This document shows positions 9,452-63,391 of a stretch of DNA of 64,000 bases, piece after piece. The stretch lies in the IMG/VR virus record IMGVR_UViG_3300033075_000957, positions 1 through 64,000 of that record. One strand, written 5' to 3'. The translations under genes and the position numbers were made by a program. The notes beneath the pieces were generated by a model. The model was not told the origin of the DNA, searched no databases, and saw nothing but the letters and a program-made list of their open reading frames with translations. Each line of letters begins with the position of its first letter. Position 1 is the first letter of the stretch. The DNA is from a virus (taxonomy: Duplodnaviria; Heunggongvirae; Uroviricota; Caudoviricetes).

Positions 9452-9469
9452 ACTAGTGTATACACTAGT
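9452..9469 (+). promoter_or_regulatory. perfect 18-bp palindrome ACTAGTGTATACACTAGT containing the TAGTGTATA promoter-like motif
   Basis: Immediately upstream of the ATG at 9472. Confidence 0.4.
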
Positions 9470-9471
9470 CT

Positions 9472-10089
9472 ATGGCACAAAAGAATGTAAAATCTTGGAC
9501 TGATGAACAATTATTAAAATGCTTTCCAAAAGCAACGAGCTATCATCATTTGGCTACAATGCTGGGATTAAAACGAATAAATCGTTCTGTTCAAAGAAAA
9601 ATTAAAGAATATAATTTGGACGTTTCCAATTTAGAAAAATTGCGTAAACAACATTATCGTATTGATAAAACAAACTATAAAATAGAAGAAGTTAAAAAAT
9701 TATGTGTTGAATCATATTCTTATGCTAGTATTTTACGAAAATTAGGTTTGAGAGATTGTGGTGGTAACTATGGAACATTAAAAAAATATATCAAGCAATT
9801 TAAAATTGATATTTCTCATTTTAAAAGGGAAAGTCATTTAGCTGGAAAAACTGGATTAACTAAAGAAAAATATAAAACTAAAGCAGGTATTAGAAATCAA
9901 CTTTTAGTTAAACGTGGACACAAATGTGAAAGATGTAAAAGAACAGAATGGGAAGGAGAACAAATAAAAATAGAAATGCATCATGTAGATGGAAACAATA
10001 AAAATAATGAAGAAAGTAATTTACAACTATTATGTCCGAATTGTCATTCTTTGACACCTAATTTTCGCGGACGAAATATAGCCAAATAA
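9472..10089 (+). CDS. HNH homing endonuclease
   Basis: CERCKRTEWEG..HHVDGNNKNNEESNLQLLCPNCH is an HNH motif; its own promoter palindrome; sits between two tRNAs. Confidence 0.7.
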   Translation: MAQKNVKSWTDEQLLKCFPKATSYHHLATMLGLKRINRSVQRKIKEYNLDVSNLEKLRKQHYRIDKTNYKIEEVKKLCVESYSYASILRKLGLRDCGGNYGTLKKYIKQFKIDISHFKRESHLAGKTGLTKEKYKTKAGIRNQLLVKRGHKCERCKRTEWEGEQIKIEMHHVDGNNKNNEESNLQLLCPNCHSLTPNFRGRNIAK

Positions 10090-10094
10090 TTATT

Positions 10095-10180
10095 GGGGAT
10101 GTGTCGAAATTGCCAAACGAACTTCACTTAAAATGAAGCGGTTCTTACGAACCTTACGGGTTGAAGTCCCGTCATCCCCA
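10095..10180 (+). tRNA. tRNA-Leu (anticodon TAA), type II
   Basis: Acceptor GGGGATG/CATCCCC, anticodon stem CTTCA/TGAAG with loop CTTAAAA, long variable arm GGTTC-TTAC-GAACC, T-arm ACGGG-TTGAAGT-CCCGT. D-loop has CC where G18G19 normally sit and the T-loop has G at position 56, a compensatory swap; 86 nt. Confidence 0.65.
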
Positions 10181-10194
10181 CTTAGGAAATAAAT

Positions 10195-10329
10195 ATGCAT
10201 AAGCAAACTATTTTTTCTATCAACCTCAATCATACGATTTACTTTCTTCCTACAGAAGAAGAAAAAATCAGTATTTGGAAAGAGATAGTTCATATTGAGA
10301 AAAGATGGGAACTTGGTAGTATTTACTGA
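10195..10329 (+). CDS. hypothetical 44-aa protein
   Basis: ATG 7 nt after AGGAAATAAAT; below ORF-track cutoff; the minus ORF 10090..10350 overlapping it is rejected. Confidence 0.3.
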   Translation: MHKQTIFSINLNHTIYFLPTEEEKISIWKEIVHIEKRWELGSIY

Positions 10330-10436
10330 GGCGTGCAGTTTAGAATCCATGGAGCGGGAAGACCTCTACCCGGAGAAGATGGAAACATTTATCAGTTTGA
10401 ATAACGCTGATTTAACAATTTTATGTATCTATTTAA

Positions 10437-10772
10437 TTGGAACTGAAGATGAATGATCCATTAGATCAGTTGCAATTTTCGGATTTCGGTCCTCATTTTA
10501 TGAAACAATCTTATCTCAACTCCTACGGAGTTGAAATAGTGGGAGATAAACCACACGAATATAGTAATAATGCGTTTACTATGATTTGGAAATATGGTTT
10601 TATGCAATGCACCTCACTATCTTTCGGACGTAAAATTGCAGAGGAATGGGCGTTTTATTTTGTATGGCACTGGCTTCGGGGAGGAGACTGTGCTGATTTA
10701 GATACAAAAGCGTGTAAATTTGTGGAAGCTTCTATACGCAAGCATCCGTATTATCGAAAGTATTGCTTATAA
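10437..10772 (+). CDS. hypothetical protein
   Basis: ORF 111 aa. Confidence 0.45.
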   Translation: MELKMNDPLDQLQFSDFGPHFMKQSYLNSYGVEIVGDKPHEYSNNAFTMIWKYGFMQCTSLSFGRKIAEEWAFYFVWHWLRGGDCADLDTKACKFVEASIRKHPYYRKYCL

Positions 10773-10794
10773 TATCAATCGAGGAAGCAGTCGT

Positions 10795-11427
10795 ATGCGG
10801 ATTAAATCGAACTTCAGAGATTATTACGACGGGCTTCAATCTTTAGATACTGACAAAAATACATTGTGGATTCGTCAGCAAAAAAGAGTTGAGGTTATCT
10901 TAAATAAAAACACTCCGAAGAACATACGTTATTTCTTCGAAGATACTTTTAGGATGGCTAAATGTTATAGAAATGTCGATACTTATACATATTGGTTGAT
11001 AGTAGGTATCGCTGGAAAAATGTACCCAATATGGGTTAAAAATAAACGTTTTATATACGATCAAAGTAAGCAACCCACTGTTAGGGACTATTGTTTTTAT
11101 AATTATCATTATAAGCAAAATCCTTGGTATCAAATCTATATTAATGACGAAATGTTGTTACAACATATGTTTGATACATATGGCCCGGTATGGTCTATTG
11201 GAACAGGCGAGTTGGCAGAGTCGATTAATTTTGTGAACTGTAATCCGCGTTTAGCGGATTATGGTTTTCATAAGTTCATGCCGGTACACGAAATTTACAA
11301 CGAGTTATACAAATTTCTGTGCAATTCTCAAAGGCTGCTCCGTCCGATTCCGGAAATGGATAACGATACGAAAATTCATCAGGCAGGATTTGATCTGAAA
11401 ACTTCTTTTAGAAAGTCTAAAAAATGA
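10795..11427 (+). CDS. hypothetical protein
   Basis: ATG at 10795 (MRIKSNFRDYYDGL..) with GAGGAAG RBS. Confidence 0.45.
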   Translation: MRIKSNFRDYYDGLQSLDTDKNTLWIRQQKRVEVILNKNTPKNIRYFFEDTFRMAKCYRNVDTYTYWLIVGIAGKMYPIWVKNKRFIYDQSKQPTVRDYCFYNYHYKQNPWYQIYINDEMLLQHMFDTYGPVWSIGTGELAESINFVNCNPRLADYGFHKFMPVHEIYNELYKFLCNSQRLLRPIPEMDNDTKIHQAGFDLKTSFRKSKK

Positions 11428-12380
11428 CATGGGATAAAATTGAGGTTAAATGCGACCCGCAAGGGCTAGTGTCTAAGTATATTTTTACGAGCAAAGATGC
11501 CGTATCTGAATCTGTTCTGTACCGTTATCCCACGTACTTAGAGCGTACAGTTATCTGTTGCAGTACCCAAAGCGGATGTCCGGTTGGTTGCCGTTTCTGT
11601 GGAACAGGCGACTTCTTTGTTCGCAATCTTAACCACGACGAGATTGTTTCTCAGCCGGTGCGGTTGTTGCAGGATACCAACATTGATCCGGCCACTATTA
11701 AGCGTTTACAGATTATGTTTATGAGCATGGGCGAGCCTATGCTTAACTGGCGTAATCTTCGTGAAGCACTTCATACTTTGTATCGACTGTATCCATCTGC
11801 ACGCTTACTAATCAGTACGATTGGTCCACGCAGGGATAATGATTTCTTTGATCTTAATTGTCTGTCAATCGATATCCCAACAATCGGGCTTCAATTTTCT
11901 GTACACGAATCATCGAACGCGGCCCGCGATCGTTTGATTCCGTTCAAAGCCAAATATACTCTTGAAGAAATCGCAACAAAGGGTGCTGAATGGCATACCG
12001 CATGTGGACGTAAACCGTTTTTTAATTATTGTGTCCACGATAAGAATAATTTGATCGAAGATGCAGAGCGTTTACGTGATCTGTTTGACCCGCGTATCTG
12101 GAACGCTACCCTATCGGTTATATGTGAACGTACCGAACATGTAACTGCTTCCAATGATTATCAAAGGCAACTTGCAATTGATTTTGGTAACATGATCGGA
12201 GACATGGGATATGATTTTAGAGTTTTTGATCCTGCCGGTGCCGATACAATAGGATCGGGATGTGGCCAATTATGGTTTGTTCAAGATTGGGCTTCGAAGC
12301 ACTCAGATAAAGTTAAACGTAGTTGTGGCAATGGTTTGCCAAAAGTACATACGCCCACATTAAATCAAAAACCGATTTAA
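11424..12380 (+). CDS. RlmN/Cfr-family radical SAM RNA methyltransferase
   Basis: CCSTQSGCPVGCRFCGTGDF matches the RlmN SSQVGCxxxCxFCATG cluster; MSMGEPMLNW matches MGMGEPLLN; C-terminal GADTIGSGCGQLW matches the conserved ACGQL cysteine motif. Confidence 0.7.
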   Translation: MTWDKIEVKCDPQGLVSKYIFTSKDAVSESVLYRYPTYLERTVICCSTQSGCPVGCRFCGTGDFFVRNLNHDEIVSQPVRLLQDTNIDPATIKRLQIMFMSMGEPMLNWRNLREALHTLYRLYPSARLLISTIGPRRDNDFFDLNCLSIDIPTIGLQFSVHESSNAARDRLIPFKAKYTLEEIATKGAEWHTACGRKPFFNYCVHDKNNLIEDAERLRDLFDPRIWNATLSVICERTEHVTASNDYQRQLAIDFGNMIGDMGYDFRVFDPAGADTIGSGCGQLWFVQDWASKHSDKVKRSCGNGLPKVHTPTLNQKPI

Positions 12381-12401
12381 ATAAAAAGTGCGAAATAAAA
12401 T

Positions 12402-12572
12402 ATGCAAAAATGGGAATACCATCTCGTTTCTAGTAACAGTTTTACATATGATCGCGTAAGAATTCTTACCGACGTGGGACGCGAAGGATGGGAATTAGTT
12501 CAGATACTTTGGCGTCCGCGATCGGAAAAGATAACTCTTTTTGTGTTTAAACGTCCAATATCAGATGTGTAA
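12402..12572 (+). CDS. small protein, DUF4177-like
   Basis: 56 aa: MQKWEYHLVSS..GREGWELVQILW pattern; below ORF-track cutoff. Confidence 0.4.
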   Translation: MQKWEYHLVSSNSFTYDRVRILTDVGREGWELVQILWRPRSEKITLFVFKRPISDV

Positions 12573-12573
12573 T

Positions 12574-12855
12574 ATGAAAATTCCAACACCTGCCGAATTC
12601 ATCGCGTTGCAAGATATTAGTAATGAATCAGAGGTAAATGCCATTCAAGATAAAATTCTTTTTGATATGCAAATTAATATGAAGGGAAATACATATACTG
12701 GGACTATAAAAGGACCAGTCTCTGATCATATTATGAATCGTGTAAAATATAAATTTGAACGGGCTGGATGGAAGTTCAAATATGAACTTATTTCTGATTT
12801 GCGTTTTAGTCAAGATTACTTTTATACTATTTCACATAACTTATCTAATAATTAG
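12574..12855 (+). CDS. hypothetical protein
   Basis: ATG at 12574 (MKIPTPAEF..). Confidence 0.4.
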   Translation: MKIPTPAEFIALQDISNESEVNAIQDKILFDMQINMKGNTYTGTIKGPVSDHIMNRVKYKFERAGWKFKYELISDLRFSQDYFYTISHNLSNN

Positions 12856-12866
12856 GGGATCATAAA

Positions 12867-13133
12867 ATGCTAGATATTGGCGAAATACGTAAAATAAGCA
12901 AGATTTTTGATATAGGACGAGCCACTGGCTTATATGAAGAACGACTATATCTTTTTGCAGCTTATGTTTTTCACCGATTTCCCGATTCTGCAAAATCATA
13001 TCACGAAGAATGGGCTTTTCGATTTGCAACTGGACAAGAGTACGAGCGGTCAGATTTACACGGGCAAGCGGTTTTAAAAGAATTAGCACCAATATTTTAT
13101 GGCCACGAAAATTCTTTACAGAATAGTACATAA
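12867..13133 (+). CDS. hypothetical protein
   Basis: AGGGGAT RBS. Confidence 0.4.
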   Translation: MLDIGEIRKISKIFDIGRATGLYEERLYLFAAYVFHRFPDSAKSYHEEWAFRFATGQEYERSDLHGQAVLKELAPIFYGHENSLQNST

Positions 13134-13455
13134 ACAACACGGATTTGGTCCGTGGTATATAAATTCAGATACTTACAGAGCGTATCCTCGCGGGCGATGC
13201 TTCGATTCAAAATATCGGTTTGCTGCTCACAACTACAAGTCTTTAAAGTTTTGGATAGAGATGTTAAGAGATGAGATTGAAAATCCGCCTTCTGATTTTG
13301 AAGTTCGTATATACAGAGTAAAAAAGAAATTCACGAGATCAACAGATAAAGACAGATTATTATCGGAAAAATTGTTTGTTGTAAAACGGTCTAAACTTTT
13401 AGGAAAAATATGTTTGGATAAATTATACGGAAAATTACAAAATGATTGTCAATAA
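13099..13455 (+). CDS. hypothetical protein
   Basis: ORF 118 aa, overlaps the previous gene by 35 nt. Confidence 0.4.
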   Translation: MATKILYRIVHKQHGFGPWYINSDTYRAYPRGRCFDSKYRFAAHNYKSLKFWIEMLRDEIENPPSDFEVRIYRVKKKFTRSTDKDRLLSEKLFVVKRSKLLGKICLDKLYGKLQNDCQ

Positions 13456-13975
13456 AGAAATTTCCAACGCTTTACATTTTGCAATCCAAGCACATAATGG
13501 ACAAAAACGTTCTCACGGAGGACCGTATGTCCTGCATGTTATTCGCGTAGCCGAACGCGTTTCAGCTAATCTTCAAATTGATATGCTGAATAATTGGCAC
13601 GTTGGTAATAACGGATGGTATACCGATACCATTTGTGCCGCTTTATTACATGACACGTTAGAAGATACCACTGTAACGAGCAATGATTTAAAATCACGTT
13701 TTGGAGAACGTGTAGCAACGATGGTAAAAAGTCTAACAACTGACGGTTTAAATAACGAAGAACTTTATTCAAAAGCAAAAACGTGGCATTATTATACTCG
13801 TATTATTAAATTAGCAGATATTTATGATAACGTAAAAGAAGGCCAGTTATCATGGAGTTCTGAAAGAATTAAACGTTATGCGGCCAATAAAGCCGATTTT
13901 ATTCGTAGTTGTTTTAATGTTGCTGATGTCGGTTATAATGAAACACTTCGATTATGTGAGGAATCTCAATTATGA
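13442..13975 (+). CDS. HD-domain phosphohydrolase (RelA/SpoT-type HD)
   Basis: HGGPYVLHVIRVAE .. AALLHDTLEDT is a His..HD motif. Confidence 0.6.
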   Translation: MIVNKEISNALHFAIQAHNGQKRSHGGPYVLHVIRVAERVSANLQIDMLNNWHVGNNGWYTDTICAALLHDTLEDTTVTSNDLKSRFGERVATMVKSLTTDGLNNEELYSKAKTWHYYTRIIKLADIYDNVKEGQLSWSSERIKRYAANKADFIRSCFNVADVGYNETLRLCEESQL

Positions 13976-15144
13976 GCAGTCTAATCGTTCAAATTCGTAC
14001 TATTACCAATATTCGTCCGCATAAAAATCCGGAAAAGACTCGAATAGAGATTGCGGAAATTGATGGATGGCAATCCATTATTCCCAAGGGACAATATGCC
14101 GTTGGCGATAATGTCGTATTTATTCCGCCCGATTCGGTAATGACCAAAGAAATCTCCGATAAGTTAGGAGTTACTAACTATTTAAAGAATGGTCGAGTAA
14201 CGTCAATCAAACTCGGCGGAGAAATGTCTTTTGGTATTATTGTAAAACCTGATCAGAATTGGCCGGTTGGCACCGACGTTGCTGAGCACTATCAGATTAC
14301 AAAATACGAGCCGCCAATAGTAACTCGTAATGGTAATTGTCCTCCCGGTACGGCTCCGCAAAATCCTCGATTCTTCCATAAATTTACAGATATTGAGAAT
14401 ATTCGACACTTTAAGACTGTTTTGGACGGTCACGAAGTAATATGTCTCGAAAAGATTCACGGAGCAAACTGGCGGGCATGTCTTGGATATAATGAGAACG
14501 GTACGAAAGAGTTCGTAGTGGGTTCACGCAATACCGTTCGTAAGGTACCTACTAAAAAGATTTCGGTCTTACCGTGTAATAAACTTCACGCATTATACTT
14601 AAAGTTACGTCGTTTTGTTGGTTTTGAGAAGATGGAAGAGGTGTTTGATATTAATGCGGCACGCAAGGATTGGTATCATCATGTTCTGTGTAATCAGGCA
14701 GAGTTTGGTAATGTCCAAAAAATGATCGAAGATATATCGCGTCATACTGGTGCTATGAATGTAGCGTTATATGGCGAAACGTTTGGCGATGGTATCCAAA
14801 ACATGACGTATGGAAAAACCAATGGCCAGATGGGTTTTGTCGCTTTTGCATTGGCAGTTGATTACAAATACGTTGATTATGATGTATTCATCAATTGGTG
14901 CGTAATGTACGATATACCTACTGCACCACTTGTGTACCGTGGACCGTATCTCTTCGATACTATACGATCATTATCGAGCGGTAAGTCGCTGATTAAAGAT
15001 GCGAATCATATTCGTGAAGGCGTAGTGGTTTTGCCCACAAAAGAAATGCATGGCCCATCTGGTAGAATTATTTTCAAATCAATTAACGATGATTATCTGC
15101 TAAGTAAGGAATCGGGTAAGATTAGTGATAGTACTGATTCGTAA
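13972..15144 (+). CDS. RNA ligase (Rnl2-like nucleotidyltransferase) with N-terminal tRNA-binding OB-fold (Trbp111/CsaA/Myf-like) domain
   Basis: N-terminus VQIRTITNIRPHKNPEKTRIEIAEIDG..YAVGDNVVFIPPDSVM matches the tRNA-binding-domain pattern (V..HP.ADKL..VDVG..IVSGA.N...GD.V.VA); EKIHGANW matches ligase motif I (KxHG, as in T4 Rnl2 KIHGTN). Confidence 0.6.
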   Translation: MSSLIVQIRTITNIRPHKNPEKTRIEIAEIDGWQSIIPKGQYAVGDNVVFIPPDSVMTKEISDKLGVTNYLKNGRVTSIKLGGEMSFGIIVKPDQNWPVGTDVAEHYQITKYEPPIVTRNGNCPPGTAPQNPRFFHKFTDIENIRHFKTVLDGHEVICLEKIHGANWRACLGYNENGTKEFVVGSRNTVRKVPTKKISVLPCNKLHALYLKLRRFVGFEKMEEVFDINAARKDWYHHVLCNQAEFGNVQKMIEDISRHTGAMNVALYGETFGDGIQNMTYGKTNGQMGFVAFALAVDYKYVDYDVFINWCVMYDIPTAPLVYRGPYLFDTIRSLSSGKSLIKDANHIREGVVVLPTKEMHGPSGRIIFKSINDDYLLSKESGKISDSTDS

Positions 15145-15153
15145 TCAAACAAG

Positions 15154-15432
15154 GTGGCAGTTATGAAAGTTAGCATTACAGTTGATGATATCCTGACAGG
15201 AAATAAAAATTGTGTTTATACCAATCCTGTTGTACGATCTATCGATAGGACTTTAAACCGTACGGTTGCAACTGTTACCGAATTCAAGCATCTTTCACCG
15301 GTTTCTGTAGGTTCTGCACAGTTTGCTACAAAAAATCGTATAAGCTATATTCCAAGAGCAATAGTAGATTGGTTATGGAGATTCAACACGCATCAACCAG
15401 TATTTCCAATTGAATTTGAGGTAAATCTATGA
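15154..15432 (+). CDS. hypothetical protein
   Basis: AAGGTGG RBS. Confidence 0.45.
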   Translation: MAVMKVSITVDDILTGNKNCVYTNPVVRSIDRTLNRTVATVTEFKHLSPVSVGSAQFATKNRISYIPRAIVDWLWRFNTHQPVFPIEFEVNL

Positions 15433-15683
15433 TTATGGCGTGTATACTTTTATATTTTATTATTGGACTAATAATTACTTTCTTTTTAGATATTTCAAAA
15501 ATAGATGACTGGCATGACTGGTGGACCGTTCTTTTTGTTGGATTGTTTACAATAACGTTTTGGCCTATTGTTGTGGTTTTATTTATAGTTATTCTTCAAC
15601 GAGAACTTAATGCAGCGAGAAATACTAAAATATCCTCATCAAATATTGAAAACCAAGAGCCAAACGATACAGAAGATCGATGA
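15429..15683 (+). CDS. small membrane protein
   Basis: Two hydrophobic helices. Confidence 0.4.
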   Translation: MIMACILLYFIIGLIITFFLDISKIDDWHDWWTVLFVGLFTITFWPIVVVLFIVILQRELNAARNTKISSSNIENQEPNDTEDR

Positions 15684-16041: not shown

Positions 16042-16274
16042 GTATATTATGAGTTGGAAACGTAAAGAATTTGATGCTAAAAAGCAAACGCGTAAAGAGT
16101 TTATAGAGCGTAAAAAAATAAGCGGAAAACATCATCCAAAAAAGGTAAAATATGTTGTGGTTAAAGATACTGATTGGCTTTCCAATATCGAGTTGGCAAA
16201 AATATAAATCTCATTATTGCTAGGAAAAATATGAACTATTCATCACTAGATGAAAAAAATATTAAAGGGTCAGT

Positions 16275-21024: not shown

Positions 21025-21034
21025 TTATACACAT
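21025..21034 (-). promoter_or_regulatory. TGTGTATAA promoter-like motif (minus strand) for 20089..21018
   Basis: Reverse complement reads ATGTGTATAAGG 7 nt before the start codon. Confidence 0.35.
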
Positions 21035-25969: not shown

Positions 25970-26509
25970 GTGGAGTATCTTTTACAGAGTAATCCAAGTA
26001 GTCCCGAGGAAACAAGAGAGATAATCGGCAAGGCTAGAGGCGAAATCGAATCCTTCGTCAAGTCTTCTCTTAAAAAGCGTGGATGCGTACTATCAGAAGA
26101 GGATATGGAAGACCTTGTTTCTGCGTGCTGGATTCAGGTATATTCAAAAATTCCTGATTGGTATCGTCCTAATTTATCAAAACTTGAAACCGGTATCTAT
26201 ACTACAGTTCATCGTGTAATCAATAGATATCTGAATAAAATTACTACAAGAAAAAATCTTGTTAACGATTACATGCAAGCAATAAATATCGCAGACTCGT
26301 ACGAGGACGACAATTATTCGTCTTCTTTTCTTGAAGAAGAATTAGAGAAAAATTGCGTCATAGATGGAAGTCTGGTGCAACAGATACTGTATCATCGCGT
26401 TAAGGAAGACAAAACTTGGCAGGATATTAGTGCGATTACCGGAGTATCAGTTCAGTCCGCTATCAATATCGCTGAAACTTGGTGTGAGAACGTACTAGAA
26501 AAAGTTTAA
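25970..26509 (+). CDS. sigma-factor-like protein (region 2/4-like)
   Basis: C-terminal HTH (QDISAITGVSVQSAINIAETW) and N-terminal helical region; weak. Confidence 0.4.
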   Translation: MEYLLQSNPSSPEETREIIGKARGEIESFVKSSLKKRGCVLSEEDMEDLVSACWIQVYSKIPDWYRPNLSKLETGIYTTVHRVINRYLNKITTRKNLVNDYMQAINIADSYEDDNYSSSFLEEELEKNCVIDGSLVQQILYHRVKEDKTWQDISAITGVSVQSAINIAETWCENVLEKV

Positions 26510-29327: not shown

Positions 29328-29338
29328 GTGTGTATAAT
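29328..29338 (+). promoter_or_regulatory. GTGTGTATAAT promoter-like motif upstream of the Y-RNA-like array
   Basis: Same motif family as upstream of about 11 other genes. Confidence 0.4.
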
Positions 29339-29922: not shown

Positions 29923-30630
29923 TTATAGTTCTAACTTCTGGTTTATTAAATTTACAATAATTGTTAAAAAGGGTTTTGCGTTCGATTTTTTAAAATATTT
30001 TAATTGAGAACTATCAATAATTACCAATTCAATTTCTTTTTCCAAACACGCCTGAAACTTTCTAGTATCATTGTTTTGAATAGATTTTAATTTTTCTTCA
30101 CCATAAATAGGCTCGTAATGAAAAATGCCATTAAGTTCAAAAGCTAATTTTAAAGAAGGAATATAAATATCTAATTCAGAATTAATAGTATCTTTACGGT
30201 TAAAATGAAATTCTAGATTTGGATAGTGTGCTATTAATTCTTTTTCTAAATATATTTCTAATTTACTACGTCGATATCCAATAGTTTTATGTGTGTTATT
30301 ATAAGTAGTGGCACAAGAAGACGAGCAAAATCGATTTTTACCAATTTTTGCACTAAAAACTCGTGTAAATAGTTTTAAACAGTATGTACATTCATATTGA
30401 AAACAAGAACCAAAATACAAAGATTTGCATTTTTTAGTACAAAACATCATTCTTTTTTTTCTTCTAGAATCGCGTATGCTAGATTTTAATCGATAAATAA
30501 TTTGTTTACATTGAGGACATTTTAAAGATAATTTATGGAAATGCTCAGACTCAAAATACTGATCTTCGGTAAATAATGGAATCATGTGAAGCATATACAC
30601 TAATAGAAATAAAATTTTCAAAACACACAT
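29923..30630 (-). CDS. homing-endonuclease-like protein (Zn-ribbon CxxC repeats plus PD-(D/E)xK-like domain)
   Basis: CPQCKQ..C..C, CTYC..CSSSC modules; ELDIYIPSLKLAFELNG..H resembles a PD-(D/E)xK core; lies between the Y-RNA-like array and the Ro60 gene. Confidence 0.5.
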   Translation of the reverse strand: MCVLKILFLLVYMLHMIPLFTEDQYFESEHFHKLSLKCPQCKQIIYRLKSSIRDSRRKKRMMFCTKKCKSLYFGSCFQYECTYCLKLFTRVFSAKIGKNRFCSSSCATTYNNTHKTIGYRRSKLEIYLEKELIAHYPNLEFHFNRKDTINSELDIYIPSLKLAFELNGIFHYEPIYGEEKLKSIQNNDTRKFQACLEKEIELVIIDSSQLKYFKKSNAKPFLTIIVNLINQKLEL

Positions 30631-35194: not shown

Positions 35195-36637
35195 ATGAAC
35201 GAATCATTTCTTTGTTTCGATAGCTATAAACTGAGTCATCATGCTATGTACCCTCCGGGTTTAACGAATATGTATTCGTATCTAGAGACACGGAATCCCT
35301 CATCTTATTCAGATAAAACGCTTTTCTTTGGTTTACAAGGAATTCTTAATAAACTTGCAGAACCATTATCAGCATTATATATCGAAGACCTGAGACGTTT
35401 TTGTTCTGTACATTTTGGCTCTACTGAAGTTTTTAATCGGCAATGGAGACGTTTATTCGAAAAACATCATTATTGGCCAGTTCGAATTAAAGCTGTTCCA
35501 GAAGGAACATTAGTACCAATCGGCAATGTTTTACTTACTATTGAAAATACAGACCCCGAATTTCCTTGGGTTACAAATCTTCTTGAAACTTTACTACTCC
35601 AAGTTTGGTATCCAACTACTGTTGCAACATATAGTTACGCAGTAAAAAAGATTTGTAAACAATTTCTCTTTGCAACAACCGATACAAATCGCATCGATGG
35701 TCATTTACAATTCATGCTGCATGACTTTGGTTTTCGTGGTGCCAGCAGTTATGAATCAGCAGGAATTGCAGGTGCGGCACATCTTGTATCTTTTTCTGGC
35801 ACCGATACTATCGCAGCATTTGAGTATATTGTCAGAAATTACTCAAATAGCATTAATTTTGATTGGAAGACGGATTGCGTAGGATTTAGCATTCCCGCTA
35901 CCGAGCATTCGATTATGACTATGCTGGGCGAAGAGGGAGAAGTACAAACGATACAGAATGTGTTAAATGCCTACCCAACAGGGCTCTTGGCGATGGTTAT
36001 TGATTCCTATGACCCTTATCAATTCATTGATAAGTTAGCAGAAAACTTTCGTAAAGAAGTTGAAACTCGTCAAGGAAGAATTGTTCTTCGTCCAGACAGC
36101 GGCGATCCTATTGAAGTTAGTGTTAAAGTGCTGGAACGCATTGGTCAGTATTTCACACCTACGGTAAATAGTAAGGGTTACCGCGTTCTTCCTGACTATA
36201 TTCGTGTTATTTATGGCGATGGAATCAATATCAATTCGATCAAGAATATCCTAACCGCCATGCAACAAGCAGGATGGGCGGCGGAAAATATAGTCTTCGG
36301 ATGCGGTGGCAAGCTGCTACAGTCCCATAATCGAGATAATTTTGGATTCGCGTTAAAAACGTCATCCGTAATTATAAATGGAAAAACAATTGAGGTATTC
36401 AAAAATCCATCAACACAGATAAATAAAATAAGCAAACGAGGAAGACTAGGCTTAGTCCTAAATGGCGATGGATTTACTACTGTTTCTGAAATACGAGCAG
36501 AAAGAGGCGGAAACTATTTAAGAACAGTTCTTGAAAATGGTAAACTGTTTAATATCGAATCATTTGATACTATTAAAAAGCGAACTCAAGAATGGTTTAG
36601 TTCTGAAAATAAATATTGCGACACTTTTGGCTTTTAA
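35195..36637 (+). CDS. nadV: nicotinamide phosphoribosyltransferase
   Basis: N-terminus FLCFDSYKLSHHAMYPPGLTNMYSYLETR matches the NAMPT signature (DSYK..H...YP); 480 aa. Confidence 0.75.
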   Translation: MNESFLCFDSYKLSHHAMYPPGLTNMYSYLETRNPSSYSDKTLFFGLQGILNKLAEPLSALYIEDLRRFCSVHFGSTEVFNRQWRRLFEKHHYWPVRIKAVPEGTLVPIGNVLLTIENTDPEFPWVTNLLETLLLQVWYPTTVATYSYAVKKICKQFLFATTDTNRIDGHLQFMLHDFGFRGASSYESAGIAGAAHLVSFSGTDTIAAFEYIVRNYSNSINFDWKTDCVGFSIPATEHSIMTMLGEEGEVQTIQNVLNAYPTGLLAMVIDSYDPYQFIDKLAENFRKEVETRQGRIVLRPDSGDPIEVSVKVLERIGQYFTPTVNSKGYRVLPDYIRVIYGDGININSIKNILTAMQQAGWAAENIVFGCGGKLLQSHNRDNFGFALKTSSVIINGKTIEVFKNPSTQINKISKRGRLGLVLNGDGFTTVSEIRAERGGNYLRTVLENGKLFNIESFDTIKKRTQEWFSSENKYCDTFGF

Positions 36638-36646
36638 GTGTATAAA
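36637..36646 (+). promoter_or_regulatory. AGTGTATAAA promoter-like motif
   Basis: 6 nt before the ATG at 36652. Confidence 0.35.
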
Positions 36647-40194: not shown

Positions 40195-40315
40195 GTGAAT
40201 CTCCTTGTGTACCGTTTATACACTAAAAAAAACAATTTCTTTGATAGAATCCGAGAGTTCTCCGGACTATAATATATAGACAGAAATAAGTCTGTCAATT
40301 GATAAAAGGATCAAT

Positions 40316-42227: not shown

Positions 42228-42761
42228 ATGAATATATTTTCGGGTGATCCAATACTCAAATGGGAAAAAATGTTATGCACGTTTTGCGGAAATCCTACCG
42301 GATGTAATTCTGGATGCGAAGATGTTCCTGTAAAAGAACGTGTAGCGAATATGATGTCCATCAATGGACAAATAAAAAGACTATACAATGCTAACTGTTA
42401 TTTTAAACAATTAAATACTTGGATAGCGTATACTAACTTTCCAGTATCAAAATCGCTTATTGAAAAACTTGCTAAAATTTCTGGTATTGAATCGATCAAT
42501 CCTTTAAGTGCCTATAGCTTTGAGATAGATATTGCAAAAATTTATGACGAAAATAAGGTAAAACAAAATATTGTCTCTGCATACAAAACTTTTATTAAGG
42601 AAAAACAGGCTTTAATTTCGACTAAAAAACAGTTGCAAAATAATCAGGTTTTAGTTTTCCCTAATGGGGCAAAGTATATCGCTAGAACCTCTGAAGAGAA
42701 GCTATTGGCAGAAGAAATAGATCAAATGTTTGGAAATATTCAAAGAACCGAAGAAAATTAG
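42228..42761 (+). CDS. hypothetical protein
   Basis: ORF 177 aa. Confidence 0.45.
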   Translation: MNIFSGDPILKWEKMLCTFCGNPTGCNSGCEDVPVKERVANMMSINGQIKRLYNANCYFKQLNTWIAYTNFPVSKSLIEKLAKISGIESINPLSAYSFEIDIAKIYDENKVKQNIVSAYKTFIKEKQALISTKKQLQNNQVLVFPNGAKYIARTSEEKLLAEEIDQMFGNIQRTEEN

Positions 42762-42769
42762 TGTATAAG
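42759..42769 (+). promoter_or_regulatory. TAGTGTATAAG promoter-like motif
   Basis: 33 nt upstream of the ATG at 42802. Confidence 0.35.
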
Positions 42770-43931: not shown

Positions 43932-43941
43932 AAGTGTATAG
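43932..43941 (+). promoter_or_regulatory. AAGTGTATAG promoter-like motif
   Basis: 7 nt before the ATG at 43948. Confidence 0.35.
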
Positions 43942-45236: not shown

Positions 45237-45786
45237 GGAAACAGTGTCGTTATCAGAATTTATTCGTCGGTTAGTTAGTATCGGAAACAATGAATCTAAT
45301 CCAAGTTATTCGTACGGAGATACTTTTTCAATTAAATTGGTTGAAGATTATTTATATTCCGATGGAGTTCGTGTAGAAATTCATACTAATACAGCAGAAA
45401 CATTTAGAGAAGCAGTTGCCGCTTCATTTAATAAAAACGCATCTAAGAAAACACAAAAACCTTTAAACATACGAATTGCACCAACATCTAAAGGTATTAA
45501 CATTCCGCTTAAAGCGATTCAGTATTTAGGAAATGGTGATAGAGTTTATCTACGTCCTCTTGAGGGAGAAACCGAAAAGTTTCTAATTAATGCATCAGCC
45601 GGTGAAGGAGTGTGTTATCCAATTTATCGTCGTGGCGATAGATTTATCATTACTCCTACGATTCAGCGAAAAGCATTCGGTCAACGTATTGATGGATATA
45701 ATGACTATCGTTATAGTCACAGTAAAGTATGGTCTGTTTCACAAAATGGACAAAATCACAATAGTCTTTATTTTTCACGTAATTAG
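45229..45786 (+). CDS. hypothetical protein
   Basis: ORF 185 aa. Confidence 0.45.
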   Translation: MLKETVSLSEFIRRLVSIGNNESNPSYSYGDTFSIKLVEDYLYSDGVRVEIHTNTAETFREAVAASFNKNASKKTQKPLNIRIAPTSKGINIPLKAIQYLGNGDRVYLRPLEGETEKFLINASAGEGVCYPIYRRGDRFIITPTIQRKAFGQRIDGYNDYRYSHSKVWSVSQNGQNHNSLYFSRN

Positions 45787-45794
45787 TGTATAAT
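45784..45794 (+). promoter_or_regulatory. TAGTGTATAAT promoter-like motif
   Basis: Upstream of the ATG at 45822. Confidence 0.35.
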
Positions 45795-47580: not shown

Positions 47581-47590
47581 ACTATACACT
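47581..47590 (-). promoter_or_regulatory. AGTGTATAGT promoter-like motif (minus strand) for 46013..47575
   Basis: Reverse complement of plus ACTATACACT, 6 nt from the minus start codon. Confidence 0.35.
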
Positions 47591-47606
47591 TACCGAAAGG
47601 AATAAT

Positions 47607-48065: not shown

Positions 48066-48076
48066 AAGTGTATAAT
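48066..48076 (+). promoter_or_regulatory. AAGTGTATAAT promoter-like motif
   Basis: About 150 nt upstream of the HNH ORF, followed by a structured leader. Confidence 0.35.
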
Positions 48077-49063: not shown

Positions 49064-49074
49064 TAGTGTATATA
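49064..49074 (+). promoter_or_regulatory. TAGTGTATATA promoter-like motif
   Basis: 6 nt before the ATG at 49080. Confidence 0.35.
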
Positions 49075-59983: not shown

Positions 59984-60051
59984 AAACGACTACAATGTCA
60001 TAAAACAAATCGTGACTAGGGTATAATGACTCTACCAAAAGAAAGATTGTC

Positions 60052-62985
60052 ATGACTACATTTATCGACCATAACGAAATTTTAAGTCCAGAGTTTTTGC
60101 AGAAATATGTTGGCAAGCACCCAAAATGGGGTTTTAACGGATTAGGATATATAGTATATAAAAGAACTTATGCCAGATGGATTCCAGAACTTAAGCGGAC
60201 TGAAGAATGGTGGGAAACCGTCGCTAGATGCATTCGCGGTGCTCAAAAAATTGGGGCAGGATATACGGTACAGGAAGCAGAGCGTTTATACGATCATGTT
60301 TTTAATCTGCGTTGTAATTTTGCCGGGCGTATGTTATGGCAATTGGGAACAGAAACTGTTGATAAGATAGGACTTCCGAGTCTTTGCAATTGCTGGAATG
60401 TTAACATCAATTCTTTAGAATCATTTTGTTTTATCTTCGAGCATCTTATGCTCGGTGGCGGGGTGGGCTTCAGTGTAAAAAAGGAACATGTCCACGAATT
60501 ACCAAAGGTTAAAGACGGCGTAGTCATCAAACATCTGGCCACTAAAGACGCTGATTTTATAGTCCCTGATTCCCGTGAAGGATGGGTAGAATTACTACGC
60601 AAAATACTTAATGCTTATTTTGTAACCGGAAAAGGCTTTACTTACTCTACGATTTTAATTCGTGGAGCCGGAGAAAAGATTAATGGATTCGGCGGTACGG
60701 CCAGTGGTCCACAAATTTTAATTGATGGACTAAATAATATTTTTGGCGTGATCTCAAAGCGTGTTGGTAAGAAATTAAGAAGTATTGACGCATTAGATAT
60801 CGCTAATATTCTAGGCAGTATCGTAGTTGCCGGAAACGTTAGAAGAAGTGCTCAGTTAGCTCTTGGCGATGCGGATGATAAATTATTTCTTAATGCTAAA
60901 CGCTGGGACTTAGGTAATATTCCTAACTGGCGTGCTATGTCAAATAATACTGTAAGTGCAGATGATTTCACTTATCTTAGCAATGATTTTTGGCGTGGAT
61001 ATGAGGGCGACGGAGAGCCTTATGGTTTAGCAAATATTGATTTATGTCGAAAGTTTGGCCGTTTAATCGACGGGCCTATGTCTAAATGTTCTTTGTATCC
61101 ACAAAGAGAAGATAAGGTAGAAGGTTTAAATCCTTGCCAACCAAAATGGGCGTTTGTTTTAACTAAAAACGGTATTAGACAATTTGGCAAGCTACAGATT
61201 GGAGACGAAATTTGGTCTTCAGAAGGTTGGACGAAAGTTGTAAAGAAATGGTCCACCGGTATTAAAAATGTGTATAAATACACAACTACAGCAGGTATTT
61301 TTTATGGAACAGAAAACCATAGAGTACTTAGTGACAACAAAAAAATCGAAGTACAAGAAGCGGAATCTATCGACATTCTTCGAGGAGGATTATCAACAGA
61401 AGACGATCTGCTACCACAAGACATCATGGATGGACTAGTTATTGGCGATGGTATGGTGCATAAAGCATCCAATAATTTAGTTCTTTTATGTATTGGACAA
61501 GATGATCAGGATTATTTTCAGAGCGAAATTACACCGCTGATACTTATCGATCGCTTTGGTATAAGCGACAATGCTTATGAAATACAAACCACAATTAAAT
61601 CAGAAGAACTTGCTAGAACTTTTGATCGAACAATCCCTGATCGTTTTGTAACTGGATCGGCGAAAACAATTCAAGGATTTTTAAGAGGGCTATATTCTGC
61701 CAACGGTTCGGTTTGCGGCAATCGTATTACATTAAAAGCAACTTCGCTTGCCCTGATCGAACAGGTACAAGTGATGCTTAGTGCTATTGGAATCAAATCT
61801 TATTATACCACAAACAAATCGTCATTGGTAACATTTGAAAACGGCGAATATCTTTGTAAACAAAGTTATGATTTAAACATTACTATTGATCGCCATCAGT
61901 TTGTTAAAAAAATTGGATTTATTCAATCTTATAAGAACGATAAAATTCGGAGTTCCAATCCAGTTCAAAATGAAAAAGTATCCTACGATATTAAATCTGT
62001 TGAACTGGTATCTCGCGAAGAAGTTTTTGATATTACTGTTGACAATCTTTCGCACACCTATTGGACTCATGGATGTAACGTGTCTAATTGTGCCGAAGCC
62101 ACGCTTGAACACGGTGAACCGTGTGATCTAGCTGAACAATATCTTCACAATCTTTCTTCACAGGAAGAATTTAATGATTGTGCAATGTTGCTATATAAAA
62201 CGCAAAAAGCTATCTTACGTTTAGATTCTATCTCCGATTGGACTAACGCAGTAGTGAAGCGAAACATGCGTGTTGGTCTTGGCGTAACTGGTGTTTGTGA
62301 AGATATCAAAAAGATTGTATGGTTAGATGATGGATATCGCTCACTTCGAGCGATAGATAAAGAGTGGTCTAAGAAACGTGGCTGGCCTGAAAGTATAAAG
62401 CTAACGGTTGTCAAGCCGTCAGGCACGTTAAGTTTGCTCGCCGGATGCACTCCCGGATGCCATCCCGCTTACGATAAATACTATATCCGTAGAGTACGGA
62501 TGGCCTCTTCTGATTCATTAGTTAATACTTGTCGTAATTTAGGTTGTAAAATTGAATATCAGATCGGTTTTGATGGAAAAGAACAGCACGACACTGTGGT
62601 TGTAGAATTTCCTTGCAAAGCCTCAGATAACGCAATTATTGCCAAAGATATGACTGCGGTAGAACAATTAGAAATTATGAAGACTTTACAGTCAGTTTGG
62701 GCCGATCAGGCTGTATCGGTAACAGTTTATTATCGTAAAGAAGAATTGCCAGCAATTAAATTATGGCTTGAAGAAAACTATGAAACATCGGTTAAAAGTG
62801 TAAGTTTCTTACTTCATAACGACCACGGATTCCGGCAGGCCCCGTATGAATCTATTACTAAAGAAAAATATGAAGAACTTATTAAGAATATGAAACCTTT
62901 AAATTCGTTGATAACTAATAATGATATTGGTGGCGAATTAGTAGAGGGTGTAGAATGCGTTAATGGAGCATGTCCCATTAGATAA
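60052..62985 (+). CDS. ribonucleotide reductase catalytic subunit (class II-like) carrying an intein
   Basis: 977 aa; MLGGGVGFS glycine-rich motif; active-site NPC|AE split by the intein (GLNP-[intein]-CAEATLE); C-terminal CVNGAC redox pair. Confidence 0.65.
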   Translation: MTTFIDHNEILSPEFLQKYVGKHPKWGFNGLGYIVYKRTYARWIPELKRTEEWWETVARCIRGAQKIGAGYTVQEAERLYDHVFNLRCNFAGRMLWQLGTETVDKIGLPSLCNCWNVNINSLESFCFIFEHLMLGGGVGFSVKKEHVHELPKVKDGVVIKHLATKDADFIVPDSREGWVELLRKILNAYFVTGKGFTYSTILIRGAGEKINGFGGTASGPQILIDGLNNIFGVISKRVGKKLRSIDALDIANILGSIVVAGNVRRSAQLALGDADDKLFLNAKRWDLGNIPNWRAMSNNTVSADDFTYLSNDFWRGYEGDGEPYGLANIDLCRKFGRLIDGPMSKCSLYPQREDKVEGLNPCQPKWAFVLTKNGIRQFGKLQIGDEIWSSEGWTKVVKKWSTGIKNVYKYTTTAGIFYGTENHRVLSDNKKIEVQEAESIDILRGGLSTEDDLLPQDIMDGLVIGDGMVHKASNNLVLLCIGQDDQDYFQSEITPLILIDRFGISDNAYEIQTTIKSEELARTFDRTIPDRFVTGSAKTIQGFLRGLYSANGSVCGNRITLKATSLALIEQVQVMLSAIGIKSYYTTNKSSLVTFENGEYLCKQSYDLNITIDRHQFVKKIGFIQSYKNDKIRSSNPVQNEKVSYDIKSVELVSREEVFDITVDNLSHTYWTHGCNVSNCAEATLEHGEPCDLAEQYLHNLSSQEEFNDCAMLLYKTQKAILRLDSISDWTNAVVKRNMRVGLGVTGVCEDIKKIVWLDDGYRSLRAIDKEWSKKRGWPESIKLTVVKPSGTLSLLAGCTPGCHPAYDKYYIRRVRMASSDSLVNTCRNLGCKIEYQIGFDGKEQHDTVVVEFPCKASDNAIIAKDMTAVEQLEIMKTLQSVWADQAVSVTVYYRKEELPAIKLWLEENYETSVKSVSFLLHNDHGFRQAPYESITKEKYEELIKNMKPLNSLITNNDIGGELVEGVECVNGACPIR
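61135..62088 (+). mobile_element. intein (318 aa) with LAGLIDADG homing-endonuclease domain, inserted before the catalytic Cys of the RNR NPCxE motif
   Basis: Begins CQPKWAFVLTKNG (block A), TENHRVL (block B), LAGLIDADG motifs GLVIGDGMVH and GFLRGLYSANGSV, ends ..CNVSN followed by the extein Cys. Confidence 0.55.
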
Positions 62986-63151
62986 AGGAGATTTTATGAA
63001 AAACATTTATATTGATAACGGTTATGTTTACGAGCAATTGGCAGAAATTCGTGAAGATGGTGTCAGTGCGGTATGTATTGGATGGCTTAAAGATAATCAA
63101 CTAATTCTAGTTAATCCGGACCATAGAATGGTAAATATTACAAATACATAA
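62963..63151 (+). CDS. hypothetical protein
   Basis: ORF 62 aa. Confidence 0.35.
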   Translation: MEHVPLDKGDFMKNIYIDNGYVYEQLAEIREDGVSAVCIGWLKDNQLILVNPDHRMVNITNT

Positions 63152-63160
63152 GGAATCGTT

Positions 63161-63349
63161 ATGTCAGAAGCGAATACTACGGAAGAAGCGTTAATCGCAC
63201 AGCCCAAAGATCCGTGTGCAGCAGCGGTAACCGCCGTGCGTTTAGCACAAGAGTCATTAACAGCCGCCCAAGCCGTTCTTGCCCTTTGTAGGGCAACTAA
63301 TCCACCAAAATCCTCTACACCAGCCGGTTCAAATCAGGCAGAGGCGTAA
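63161..63349 (+). CDS. hypothetical Ala-rich protein
   Basis: AGGAATCGTT RBS. Confidence 0.4.
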   Translation: MSEANTTEEALIAQPKDPCAAAVTAVRLAQESLTAAQAVLALCRATNPPKSSTPAGSNQAEA

Positions 63350-63381
63350 AATTGCTCTTAATTTGAAGAATTTTACAAATT

Positions 63382-63391
63382 TAGTGTATAT
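63382..63391 (+). promoter_or_regulatory. TAGTGTATAT promoter-like motif
   Basis: Upstream of the ATG at 63398. Confidence 0.35.

What the first reader, a model, noticed from the sequence alone, without database searches (positions are those of the whole stretch)
9452..63391. Recurrent TAGTGTATAW promoter-like motif in front of about 12 genes on both strands
Near-identical copies lie 5-35 nt before start codons at 9452 (embedded in a perfect 18-bp palindrome), 29328, 36637, 42759, 43932, 45784, 48066, 49064 and 63382 on the plus strand. Minus-strand copies serve the genes at 21018, 40194 and 47575. Many of the served genes are homing endonucleases, lipoproteins or the Y-RNA array. The consensus resembles a -10 element (TATAAT) with a fixed GTG extension rather than the classical TGn extension. 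A sigma-like ORF (25970..26509) is present, so this could be a phage-specific (middle or late) promoter class.
Basis: seen in the sequence. Interest (0 to 1): 0.55.

Follow-up and report, generated by a model that had tools for sequence, protein, structure and literature searches.

The report
Phage promoter motif fused to start codons
An uncultivated ~156-kb phage carries a short signal, GTGTATA(A/T), in front of about 14 genes; it is most likely a phage-type promoter, and it often sits exactly 6 bases before the ATG, so that the mRNAs (many of them for selfish homing endonucleases) would have no leader.

Summary
GTGTATA is the most enriched 7-mer upstream of ORF starts. TAGTGTATAW occurs 6 times against 0.36 expected.

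At 8 sites a long ORF's ATG starts 6-8 nt after GTGTATAW, mostly exactly 6 (P about 1e-14). There is no room for a Shine-Dalgarno sequence, and the base before the ATG is always a pyrimidine. The other sites have 21-33 nt leaders or precede a tRNA cluster and a non-coding RNA array beside a Ro60 gene.

The motif and its geometry recur at orthologous genes in three related metagenomic phages whose flanks have diverged. They also recur in front of endonucleases of at least five families.

The best reading is a -10-type promoter with no strong -35 element, giving leaderless transcripts. The closest known case is the phiEco32 gp36-dependent promoter (tAATGTAtA, start 6-8 bp downstream).

ORF 25970-26509 is a genuine two-domain ECF-like sigma factor, but it shows no detectable homology to gp36. 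Its link to the motif is unproven, and the host primary sigma remains a serious rival. No transcript data exist and the host is unknown.

The parts
9454..9463 (+). Motif copy TAGTGTATAC, inside the 18-bp palindrome 9452-9469. The ATG of HNH endonuclease gene 9472-10089 starts 8 nt after the 8-mer.
9458..9467 (-). Palindromic partner copy. An ATG at 9451 lies 6 nt downstream and opens only a 44-codon ORF. Function is uncertain; it could be a bidirectional promoter or an operator.
21025..21034 (-). ATGTGTATAA, 6 nt before the ATG of the DUF723-type homing endonuclease gene 20089-21018.
   Evidence: orthologue L002 3847
25970..26509 (+). Two-domain ECF-like sigma factor gene (179 aa). It is the candidate specificity factor, but the link to the motif is not shown.
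29328..29337 (+). GTGTGTATAA in front of the non-coding RNA array 29343-29920, next to the Ro60 gene. The first repeat unit, GGGGCCGAAG, begins 6 nt after the 8-mer.
30593..30602 (-).
36636..36645 (+). AAGTGTATAA, overlapping the stop codon of the NAMPT gene, 6 nt before the ATG of HNH/EndoVII-like gene 36652-37287.
40216..40225 (-). TAGTGTATAA, 21 nt before the ATG of the 42-aa membrane protein gene 40066-40194. The leader carries AAGGAG.
   Evidence: orthologues L005 11353 and L006 11303
42759..42768 (+). TAGTGTATAA, whose TAG is the stop codon of ORF 42228-42761, 33 nt before gene 42802-43332.
   Evidence: orthologue L005 14459
43932..43941 (+). AAGTGTATAG, 6 nt before the ATG of GNAT acetyltransferase gene 43948-44376.
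   Evidence: orthologues L005 15644 (gap 6) and L006 20016 (gap 8)
45784..45793 (+). TAGTGTATAA, whose TAG is the stop codon of ORF 45229-45786, followed by the conserved hairpin GCGTTC-N8-GAACGC and the ATG at 45822 of a 64-aa zinc-ribbon protein.
   Evidence: orthologue L005 18156
47582..47591 (-). AAGTGTATAG, 6 nt before the ATG of the 520-aa gene 46013-47575.
   Evidence: orthologue L005 19963, gap 6
48066..48075 (+). AAGTGTATAA, 26 nt before tRNA-Pro (48102-48174) and a second tRNA (48178-48250). It also has a TTGAGA -35-like hexamer at 17-nt spacing.
   Evidence: orthologue L005 20545
49064..49073 (+). TAGTGTATAT, 6 nt before the ATG of HNH endonuclease gene 49080-49523.
63382..63391 (+). 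TAGTGTATAT, 6 nt before ATG 63398 of a lipoprotein-like membrane protein, whose ORF runs off the window.
60017..60026 (+). Candidate variant TAGGGTATAA(T), 25 nt before the class II ribonucleotide reductase gene 60052-62985. The same variant, GGGTATAA plus 6 nt plus ATG, precedes the DUF723 endonuclease gene in L003.

Best explanation
GTGTATA(A/T), usually preceded by (T/A)A, is the core of a promoter class used by this phage lineage. It is a short -10-type element with no strongly conserved -35 element, read by the bacterial RNA polymerase core carrying a sigma subunit.

Transcription would start about 7 nt after the last motif base. At roughly half of the sites that position is the A of the ATG, so the mRNA is leaderless. 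An internal copy of the same ATG on a read-through transcript has no Shine-Dalgarno sequence and would stay untranslated. These genes, mostly free-standing homing endonucleases, would therefore be expressed only from their own promoter. At the remaining sites the same promoter drives leadered mRNAs, a tRNA cluster and a non-coding RNA array beside the Ro60 gene.

Shown: the enrichment, the orientation, the fixed spacing, the pyrimidine before the ATG, the conservation in relatives, and the sigma nature of ORF 25970-26509.

Inferred: the promoter function (about 0.8), the leaderless starts (about 0.65), and that the specificity factor is the phage's own fast-evolving ECF-like sigma rather than the host primary sigma (about 0.4-0.45).
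For: Enrichment: 6 exact copies against 0.36 expected, and GTGTATA is the top upstream 7-mer at p 7e-8.

Geometry: 8 of 18 GTGTATA copies have an ATG opening an ORF of at least 100 aa at 6-8 nt, against a background of 0.49% per position (binomial 1.5e-14). By my tally of the sequences shown, all 17 short-gap start codons in the window and its relatives follow a pyrimidine. That compares with 59% at other ATG genes in the window. All of them use ATG. No leaderless-type TATA-N5-ATG gene start lacks the GTG.

The motif also precedes RNA genes: tRNA-Pro at 48102, and the non-coding RNA array, whose first unit begins where transcription is predicted to start.

Conservation with diverged flanks: L005 has 10 copies against 2.2 expected. 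The GNAT gene, the 520-aa gene, the small membrane gene opposite the RuvB-like gene, the 42802 and 45822 orthologues and the tRNA cluster all keep the motif and its spacing in L005 and/or L006. L002 15206 and L003 9548 have gap 6.

The genes served include endonucleases of at least five families, so the motif is not a repeat inherited by descent.

There is no strong -35 element: only a weak T at about -35 and A at about -31, each 19 of 26 sites. Two-hexamer sigma-70 sites are not above shuffles.

Known analogue: phiEco32 gp36-dependent promoters have the single element tAATGTAtA with the start 6-8 bp downstream (PMC8948821); AATGTA is centred at -11.5 and -11G is read by the sigma (PMC12276001).

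Sigma: a profile of the ORF 25970-26509 family matches ECF sigma structures over both domains at E 5e-8, and all top Foldseek hits are sigma factors. A syntenic, fast-evolving sigma is present in every relative examined.
Against: No 5'-end or expression data exist, and the host is unknown.

TATAW also fits the first five positions of an ordinary -10 hexamer, so the host primary sigma could read it.

The phage sigma is not detectably related to gp36 (BLASTP E 2.1; hhalign probability 1%).

It has a sigma-4 domain, and ECF sigmas normally need a -35 element, which is at best weak here.

Motif presence does not track sigma similarity. L006 keeps the motif at three gene starts although its syntenic sigma is detectable only by profile comparison. 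L007, whose sigma is 24% identical, lacks the motif.

Only 64 kb of about 156 kb was visible, so the temporal class cannot be inferred.
Confidence: 0.55

Rival explanations
1. It is the same promoter, but read by the host primary sigma (sigma-70 or sigma-A). TATAWn would be the -10 hexamer. The GTG would be an unusual upstream extension, or a contact for a phage co-factor that makes -35 recognition dispensable, as in Thermus phage P23-45 (from my own knowledge of that system).
For: TATA(A/T) matches positions -12 to -8 of TATAAT. Sites driving RNA genes or long leaders read TATAAT in full (29330, 45786, 48068; L005 15644, 18156, 20545). There is a weak TTnAAA-like pattern 17-18 bp upstream. 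The motif survives in L006 although the phage sigma has diverged beyond BLAST recognition. Other plain TATAAT sites exist upstream of genes at 128, 5082 and 40316.
Against: The invariant G-T-G is not the TGn extension, because the TG abuts the hexamer. The position corresponding to -7 T, which is essential for sigma-70, is not conserved (A5/T5/G4 of 14 sites). All leaderless-geometry starts carry GTG and none uses a plain TATAAT. The motif is lineage-restricted: it is absent from L007 at orthologous positions and not enriched in L009.
Confidence: 0.3
2. The motif acts in RNA rather than DNA. It would be a binding site for a translational repressor or activator (in the manner of T4 RegA), or an endoribonuclease processing site placed at a fixed distance from the AUG.
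For: It is strand-specific and sits at a fixed 6-nt distance from the AUG at half of the sites. Several copies lie inside operons, directly after the stop codon of the upstream gene, so they would be transcribed.
Against: The motif also precedes tRNA and non-coding RNA genes, which are not translated. At other genes the distance is 21-33 nt and a normal Shine-Dalgarno sequence lies in between. The sequence and position match a known DNA promoter element. The pyrimidine/purine pair at the predicted start is a transcription-start signature.
Confidence: 0.07
3. The motif is a by-product of homing-endonuclease mobility: a cassette end, a target-site remnant or a repeat copied together with the endonuclease genes, with no function of its own.
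For: Five of about 14 sites in the window, and five more in the relatives, precede endonuclease genes. The DUF723 endonuclease gene and its upstream region sit in a 2.5-kb block that is 89% identical to L002, against 64-73% in the neighbouring DNA.
Against: The endonucleases belong to at least five unrelated families and share nothing beyond about 10 nt. Non-mobile genes (GNAT, the 520-aa gene, the membrane protein, the tRNAs) keep the motif at orthologous positions in genomes with 50-77% protein identity.
Confidence: 0.04

Closest known systems
phiEco32 (Kuravirus) middle/late promoters read by the phage sigma gp36, consensus tAATGTAtA
   Same: Both are a single conserved element of about 9 bp in the -10 region, and 8 of 9 bases are identical (tAGTGTATA against tAATGTAtA). 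In both, a G sits in the position that gp36 flips out at -11. The mapped phiEco32 start lies 6-8 bp downstream, which here would fall on the ATG. Both phages encode a small, highly diverged sigma-70-family protein (PMC8948821; PMC12276001).
   Different: The sigma here shows no detectable homology to gp36. Its C-terminal domain looks like an ordinary ECF sigma-4. No gp79-like co-factor has been identified. The genome is about 156 kb and unrelated to Kuravirus. The promoters abut start codons, which is not described for phiEco32.
T4 late promoters (TATAAATA; gp55 with gp33 and gp45) and the late-promoter control of T4 homing endonuclease genes
   Same: Both are 8-bp, -10-only phage promoters. 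In both phages, free-standing endonuclease genes carry their own phage-class promoter inside host-class operons. In T4, translation of I-TevI is limited to the late transcript (from my own knowledge).
   Different: The consensus differs. No gp55-like protein was seen in the window, and the sigma found has two domains. T4 restricts translation with a hairpin that occludes the ribosome-binding site; here the restriction would come from the leaderless design.
Extended -10 sigma-70 promoters (TGnTATAAT) and the Gram-positive -16 TRTG motif
   Same: Both have a TG-containing extension upstream of a TATA-type hexamer and a weak or absent -35 element.
   Different: The TG is one base too close to the hexamer, a second G is invariant, and the -7 T is not conserved.
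Leaderless mRNAs (lambda cI from PRM; many genes of Actinobacteria, Deinococcus-Thermus and their phages)
   Same: In both, a -10 element lies 5-8 nt before an AUG, with no Shine-Dalgarno sequence and a strict AUG start.
   Different: Here leaderless geometry is confined to one promoter class in a 38% G+C phage. About half of its other ATG genes have Shine-Dalgarno-like sequences (39 of 81).

Membership tests
phiEco32 gp36-type single-element promoters | One conserved element, tAATGTAtA, in the -10 region | tested here: met
   The consensus here is (t/a)(t)A-GTGTATA-(A/T), 8 of 9 identical to tAATGTAtA.
phiEco32 gp36-type single-element promoters | Transcription starts 6-8 bp downstream of the element | not testable with these tools
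   This is only inferred. The ATG begins 7 nt after GTGTATA at 7 window sites, and the preceding base is always a pyrimidine.
phiEco32 gp36-type single-element promoters | Read by a gp36-family sigma | tested here: not met
   ORF 25970-26509 against gp36: BLASTP E 2.1; hhalign probability 1.1%.
phiEco32 gp36-type single-element promoters | A gp79-like co-activator / sigma-70 inhibitor is encoded | not tested
   Only 64 kb of about 156 kb was seen, and the small ORFs were not compared with gp79.
Extended -10 sigma-70 promoters | TG at -15/-14, separated by one base from a TATAAT hexamer | tested here: not met
   The TG directly abuts TATA at all 26 sites.
Extended -10 sigma-70 promoters | Conserved T at -7 of the hexamer | tested here: not met
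   The base after TATAW is A5/T5/G4 among 14 window sites.
T4-type late promoters | Consensus TATAAATA and a gp55-like single-domain sigma | tested here: not met
   The consensus differs. The sigma has both sigma-2 and sigma-4 domains. No gp55 PHROG hit was found among the ORFs scanned.
ECF sigma promoters | Bipartite promoter with a conserved -35 (AAC type) and a -10 (CGT type) | tested here: not met
   Only a weak T at about -35 and A at about -31 are seen, and no AAC or CGT.
Leaderless mRNA genes | A -10 element 5-8 nt before the start codon, an AUG start, and no Shine-Dalgarno sequence | tested here: met
   Eight window genes and seven in relatives fit. All use ATG, with spacers of 6-8 nt.
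Leaderless mRNA genes | Mapped 5' triphosphate end at the A of the AUG | not testable with these tools
   No transcript data are available.
Sigma-70 family (ORF 25970-26509) | Sigma-2 and sigma-4 domains | tested here: met
   Pfam Sigma70_r2 scores E 3.5e-4, below the curated cut-off. PHROG sigma factor scores E 7e-7. The family profile against PDB matches SigE, SigW and SigH at E 5e-8 over residues 15-170. All top Foldseek hits are sigma factors, although the model pLDDT is only 68.

The most novel reading that the evidence does not exclude
The phage lineage has a dedicated expression channel for 'autonomous' genes. A sigma-specific -10-only promoter is fused directly to the AUG. Free-standing homing endonucleases of many families, and a few other insert-like genes, would then be translated only from their own leaderless transcripts and stay silent on operon read-through. 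The specificity factor would be a very fast-evolving phage ECF-like sigma that has converged on almost the same DNA element as phiEco32 gp36.
Probability: 0.3. Interest if true: 0.65.

Novelty: new member of a known kind. Interest (0 to 1): 0.45.

Why it matters
If confirmed, the motif gives a ready-made promoter map for a family of large (150-190 kb) uncultivated phages that has no isolate.

It would also show a second, apparently independent case of a phage sigma reading a G-containing, single-element -10 promoter like that of phiEco32.

It suggests a simple way in which selfish endonuclease genes tie their expression to the phage programme: a leaderless start directly behind a phage-class promoter. 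This differs from the RNA-hairpin solution known in T4.

In practice, the fixed geometry corrects several start-codon calls (for example 30585, L003 9562). It also predicts the 5' end of the Ro60-associated non-coding RNAs.

Tried and rejected
- **Close relatives in public collections.** None was found in GenBank phages with DNA or the sigma protein. IMG/VR scans with the sigma and the 520-aa protein found none either. A JGI metagenome scan with the sigma alignment also gave nothing.
- **How relatives were reached.** Exact-protein look-ups of homologues worked.
- **Host identification.** A NAMPT scan of bacterial genomes failed. An exact search for the promoter-plus-endonuclease junction in viral and bacterial contigs found nothing. 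tblastn of the RuvB-like and DUF932 proteins gave no informative hosts. Sample identifiers were not found in the literature.
- **Bacteroidota -7 motif TAnnTTTG.** Not enriched: 76 matches against 74 expected.
- **Canonical two-hexamer sigma-70 promoters.** Not enriched.
- **Rfam.** No Y-RNA family match in the array.
- **Literature.** Searching for GTGTATAA as a promoter found nothing relevant.
- **De novo motif hunting in relatives.** L007 (repeat finder) and L002/L008 (k-mer enrichment) gave no alternative promoter motif.
- **Other transcription factors near the sigma gene.** PHROG scans found none.
- **Alternative -10 register TAGTGT (TAnnnT).** Considered and set aside, because the first T is variable and the start would then fall 3-4 nt before the ATG.

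Full report
**What the window is.**
The window is 64 kb of a phage genome with about 38% G+C. It holds about 120 mostly plus-strand ORFs, 11-12 tRNA genes and auxiliary genes:
- a class II ribonucleotide reductase with an intein-sized insert;
- NAMPT, ThyX, a RuvB-like ATPase, an RNA ligase and radical SAM proteins;
- a Ro60/TROVE protein.

It has no close relative in GenBank phages or IMG/VR. The same or a nearly identical phage sits on a 156-kb JGI contig. The host is unknown.

**Check of the observation.**
TAGTGTATAW occurs 6 times against 0.36 expected, and GTGTATAD 15 times against 6.7. I counted 7-mers in the 60 nt upstream of 126 greedily chosen ORFs, without any prior. GTGTATA came out as the most enriched word, with 10 of its 18 occurrences there (p 7e-8). 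Next came Shine-Dalgarno-like AAGGA words.

Only five fit the 10-mer exactly. The first two bases and the last are soft, so the real consensus is (t/a)(t)A-GTGTATA-(A/T).

There is one more exact copy at 30593-30602 on the minus strand. The 18-bp palindrome at 9452-9469 contains a second, minus-strand copy. At most four GTGTATA copies lie in probable coding or pseudogene sequence (15440, 28228, 48762, 61270).

At eight sites an ATG that opens a long ORF (142 to 520 aa) begins 6-8 nt after GTGTATAW:
- gap 6 at 36652, 43948, 49080, 63398, 21018- and 47575-;
- gap 7 at 30585-;
- gap 8 at 9472.

The chance that a random position has such an ATG at 6-8 nt is 0.49%. Eight of 18 gives P about 1.5e-14. 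Six nucleotides leave no room for a Shine-Dalgarno sequence, whereas 39 of 81 other ATG genes have one.

All these starts are ATG, and the base before the ATG is always C or T. Adding the short-gap sites in the relatives, my tally from the sequences is 17 of 17. The figure for other ATG genes in the window is 59%. A pyrimidine at -1 and a purine at +1 is the usual signature of a bacterial transcription start.

No gene in the window has a TATA-type hexamer at leaderless distance without the GTG.

The remaining sites are of two kinds. Some have 21-33 nt leaders (40194- with AAGGAG; 42802; 45822 behind a conserved hairpin). The others precede RNA genes. One is tRNA-Pro, 26 nt downstream of the 48066 copy. 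The other is the non-coding array next to Ro60, whose first repeat unit, GGGGCCGAAG, starts exactly where transcription from the 29328 copy is predicted to begin.

**Related genomes.**
HMMER and word searches with the sigma-like, RuvB-like and DUF932 proteins led to several metagenomic relatives.

| Loci | Contig | Similarity to the window |
|---|---|---|
| L002 + L005 | one 163-kb contig | RuvB 77%, sigma 44% identical |
| L003 | 10 kb | sigma 35% |
| L006 + L008 | 156 kb | RuvB 50% |
| L007 | 151 kb | RuvB 44% |
| L009 | 141 kb | DUF932 cluster representative 43% |

In L005 GTGTATA occurs 10 times against 2.2 expected. Orthologous genes keep the motif and its spacing while the surrounding spacer sequence has diverged:
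- the GNAT gene (gap 6 in the window and L005, gap 8 in L006);
- the 520-aa gene (gap 6 in both);
- the small membrane protein gene opposite the RuvB-like gene (window, L005, L006);
- the 42802 and 45822 orthologues;
- the tRNA cluster.

L002 15206 and L003 9548 are further gap-6 sites. L003 has the variant GGGTATAA plus 6 nt plus ATG before its DUF723 endonuclease gene.

L007 lacks the motif, including at the orthologous GNAT and RuvB-downstream positions. L008 and L009 show no enrichment. The motif is therefore lineage-restricted within a larger phage family.

**What the motif serves.**
In the window, five sites precede free-standing endonuclease genes:
- HNH of two PHROG families, plus an HNH/EndoVII-like gene;
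- a DUF723 type;
- a phrog_559-like type.

In the relatives the same arrangement precedes an EndoVII-like gene and two phrog_4645 endonucleases. These proteins are unrelated to one another, and the sites share only about 10 nt. The motif is therefore not a repeat carried by descent.

The DUF723 gene lies in a 2.5-kb block that is 89% identical between the window and L002, whereas neighbouring syntenic DNA is 64-73% identical. That is the pattern expected of recent homing with co-conversion. It suggests that the endonuclease genes travel together with this promoter.

**Which polymerase specificity?**
No strongly conserved -35 element exists. With 26 sites, only a T at about -35 and an A at about -31 (19 of 26 each) stand out from an AT-rich background. 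Two-hexamer sigma-70 sites are not more frequent than in shuffles. One good canonical site, TTGACA-16-TATATT, lies upstream of the 40223 copy.

The motif is not a classical extended -10. The TG abuts the TATA, a second G is invariant, and the base at the -7 position is not conserved.

The closest described element is the phiEco32 middle/late promoter:
- In the cryo-EM structure the phage sigma gp36 reads -14A, -13A and -12T and flips out -11G (PMC12276001).

The present consensus, tAGTGTATA, differs at one base, and the predicted start falls on the ATG.

ORF 25970-26509 is a real sigma-70-family protein. It aligns with an ordinary ECF sigma (P0005) over regions 2 and 4. Its family profile hits SigE, SigW and SigH structures at E 5e-8, and all top Foldseek hits are sigma factors (model pLDDT 68).

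It is not detectably related to gp36, so it cannot be filed in that family. The resemblance is one of mechanism, possibly convergent.

A syntenic sigma is present in every relative but evolves very fast: 44%, 35% and 24% identity, and detectable only by profile comparison in L008. Motif presence does not follow sigma similarity neatly, because L006/L008 keeps the motif and L007 does not. The link between this sigma and the motif therefore remains an inference. The host primary sigma is a serious rival.

**Mechanism proposed.**
- RNA polymerase holoenzyme recognises GTGTATA(A/T) at about -14 to -7 and starts about 7 nt downstream. This step is inferred.
- Where the ATG sits at that point, the mRNA is leaderless and can be translated from its 5'-terminal AUG.
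- The same AUG inside a read-through transcript has no ribosome-binding site. Several of these genes sit directly behind the stop codon of an upstream gene, and the motif's TAG or TAA is that stop codon at 36636, 42759 and 45784.
- These genes would therefore be expressed only when this promoter class is active.
- This parallels the known restriction of T4 I-TevI translation to its late transcript, but by a different device (my own knowledge of T4).

**Verdict.**
The promoter interpretation is well supported by computation. The sigma and temporal-class assignment remains open.

It is a new member of a known kind (phage-class -10-only promoters), with an unusual and systematic coupling to leaderless starts. 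Interest is moderate.

Noticed in passing
window 29343-29920 and 30753-32363: A Ro60/TROVE gene is preceded by a non-coding array of about 600 nt with three units that start GGGCCGAAGAT (29343, 29533, 29753). The array includes a tRNA-Glu-like element (29611-29694) and a tmRNA-like T-arm fragment. It has no Rfam Y-RNA match. Unit 1 folds with a z-score of -2.3. It is possibly a new YrlA-like RNA family.
   Followed up: partly
window 19559-22066 versus L002 2361-4878: A 2.5-kb block around the DUF723 homing endonuclease gene is 89% identical between the two phages, whereas flanking syntenic DNA is 64-73% identical. This is the signature of recent homing with co-conversion of the flanks.
   Followed up: partly
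window 9452-9469: A perfect 18-bp palindrome, ACTAGTGTATACACTAGT, is made of two back-to-back motif copies. Its last base is the unusual C. The minus-strand copy faces only a 44-codon ORF. It could be a bidirectional promoter or an operator.
   Followed up: partly
window 60052-62985: The class II ribonucleotide reductase (977 aa) aligns to relatives in two pieces, with an insert of about 340 aa that is probably an intein. A GTGTATAAATA copy at 61270 lies inside the gene.
   Followed up: no
window 45794-45821 and L005 18164-18192: A conserved hairpin, GCGTTC-N8-GAACGC, lies directly after the promoter. Its loop and 3' arm hold the GGAG in front of a 64-aa zinc-ribbon gene. The stems are identical in both phages and the loops differ.
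   Followed up: no
window 48224-48833: An HNH endonuclease remnant appears frameshifted: the C-terminal CANCHIKRH motif continues in another frame to 48833. The GTGTATAA at 48762 lies inside this remnant and is probably not a promoter.
   Followed up: no
window 40271-40298 (minus strand): A near-consensus sigma-70 promoter, TTGACA-16-TATATT, lies about 50 nt upstream of the 40223 motif copy. This suggests tandem promoters of two classes for the 42-aa membrane protein gene.
   Followed up: no
window 1-6400: This region has higher G+C (about 42%) and many spacers of 150-270 nt between small ORFs. Terminator-like hairpins are in excess in 1-20000 (29 against 12.8 expected). No motif copy occurs here. 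It may be an early region or rich in small RNAs.
   Followed up: no
L008 12695-13276, L007 4124-4666, L006 17960-18496: The sigma gene next to the DUF932 gene is conserved in position across the phage family but evolves far faster than its neighbours, down to similarity detectable only by profile comparison. The L006/L008 phage carries a second, unrelated sigma-like gene.
   Followed up: partly
window 23488-23660: GGTCTG-type hexamer repeats lie inside ORF 23418-23672. They encode a Gly-Leu repeat and are picked up as pseudo-terminators.
   Followed up: no
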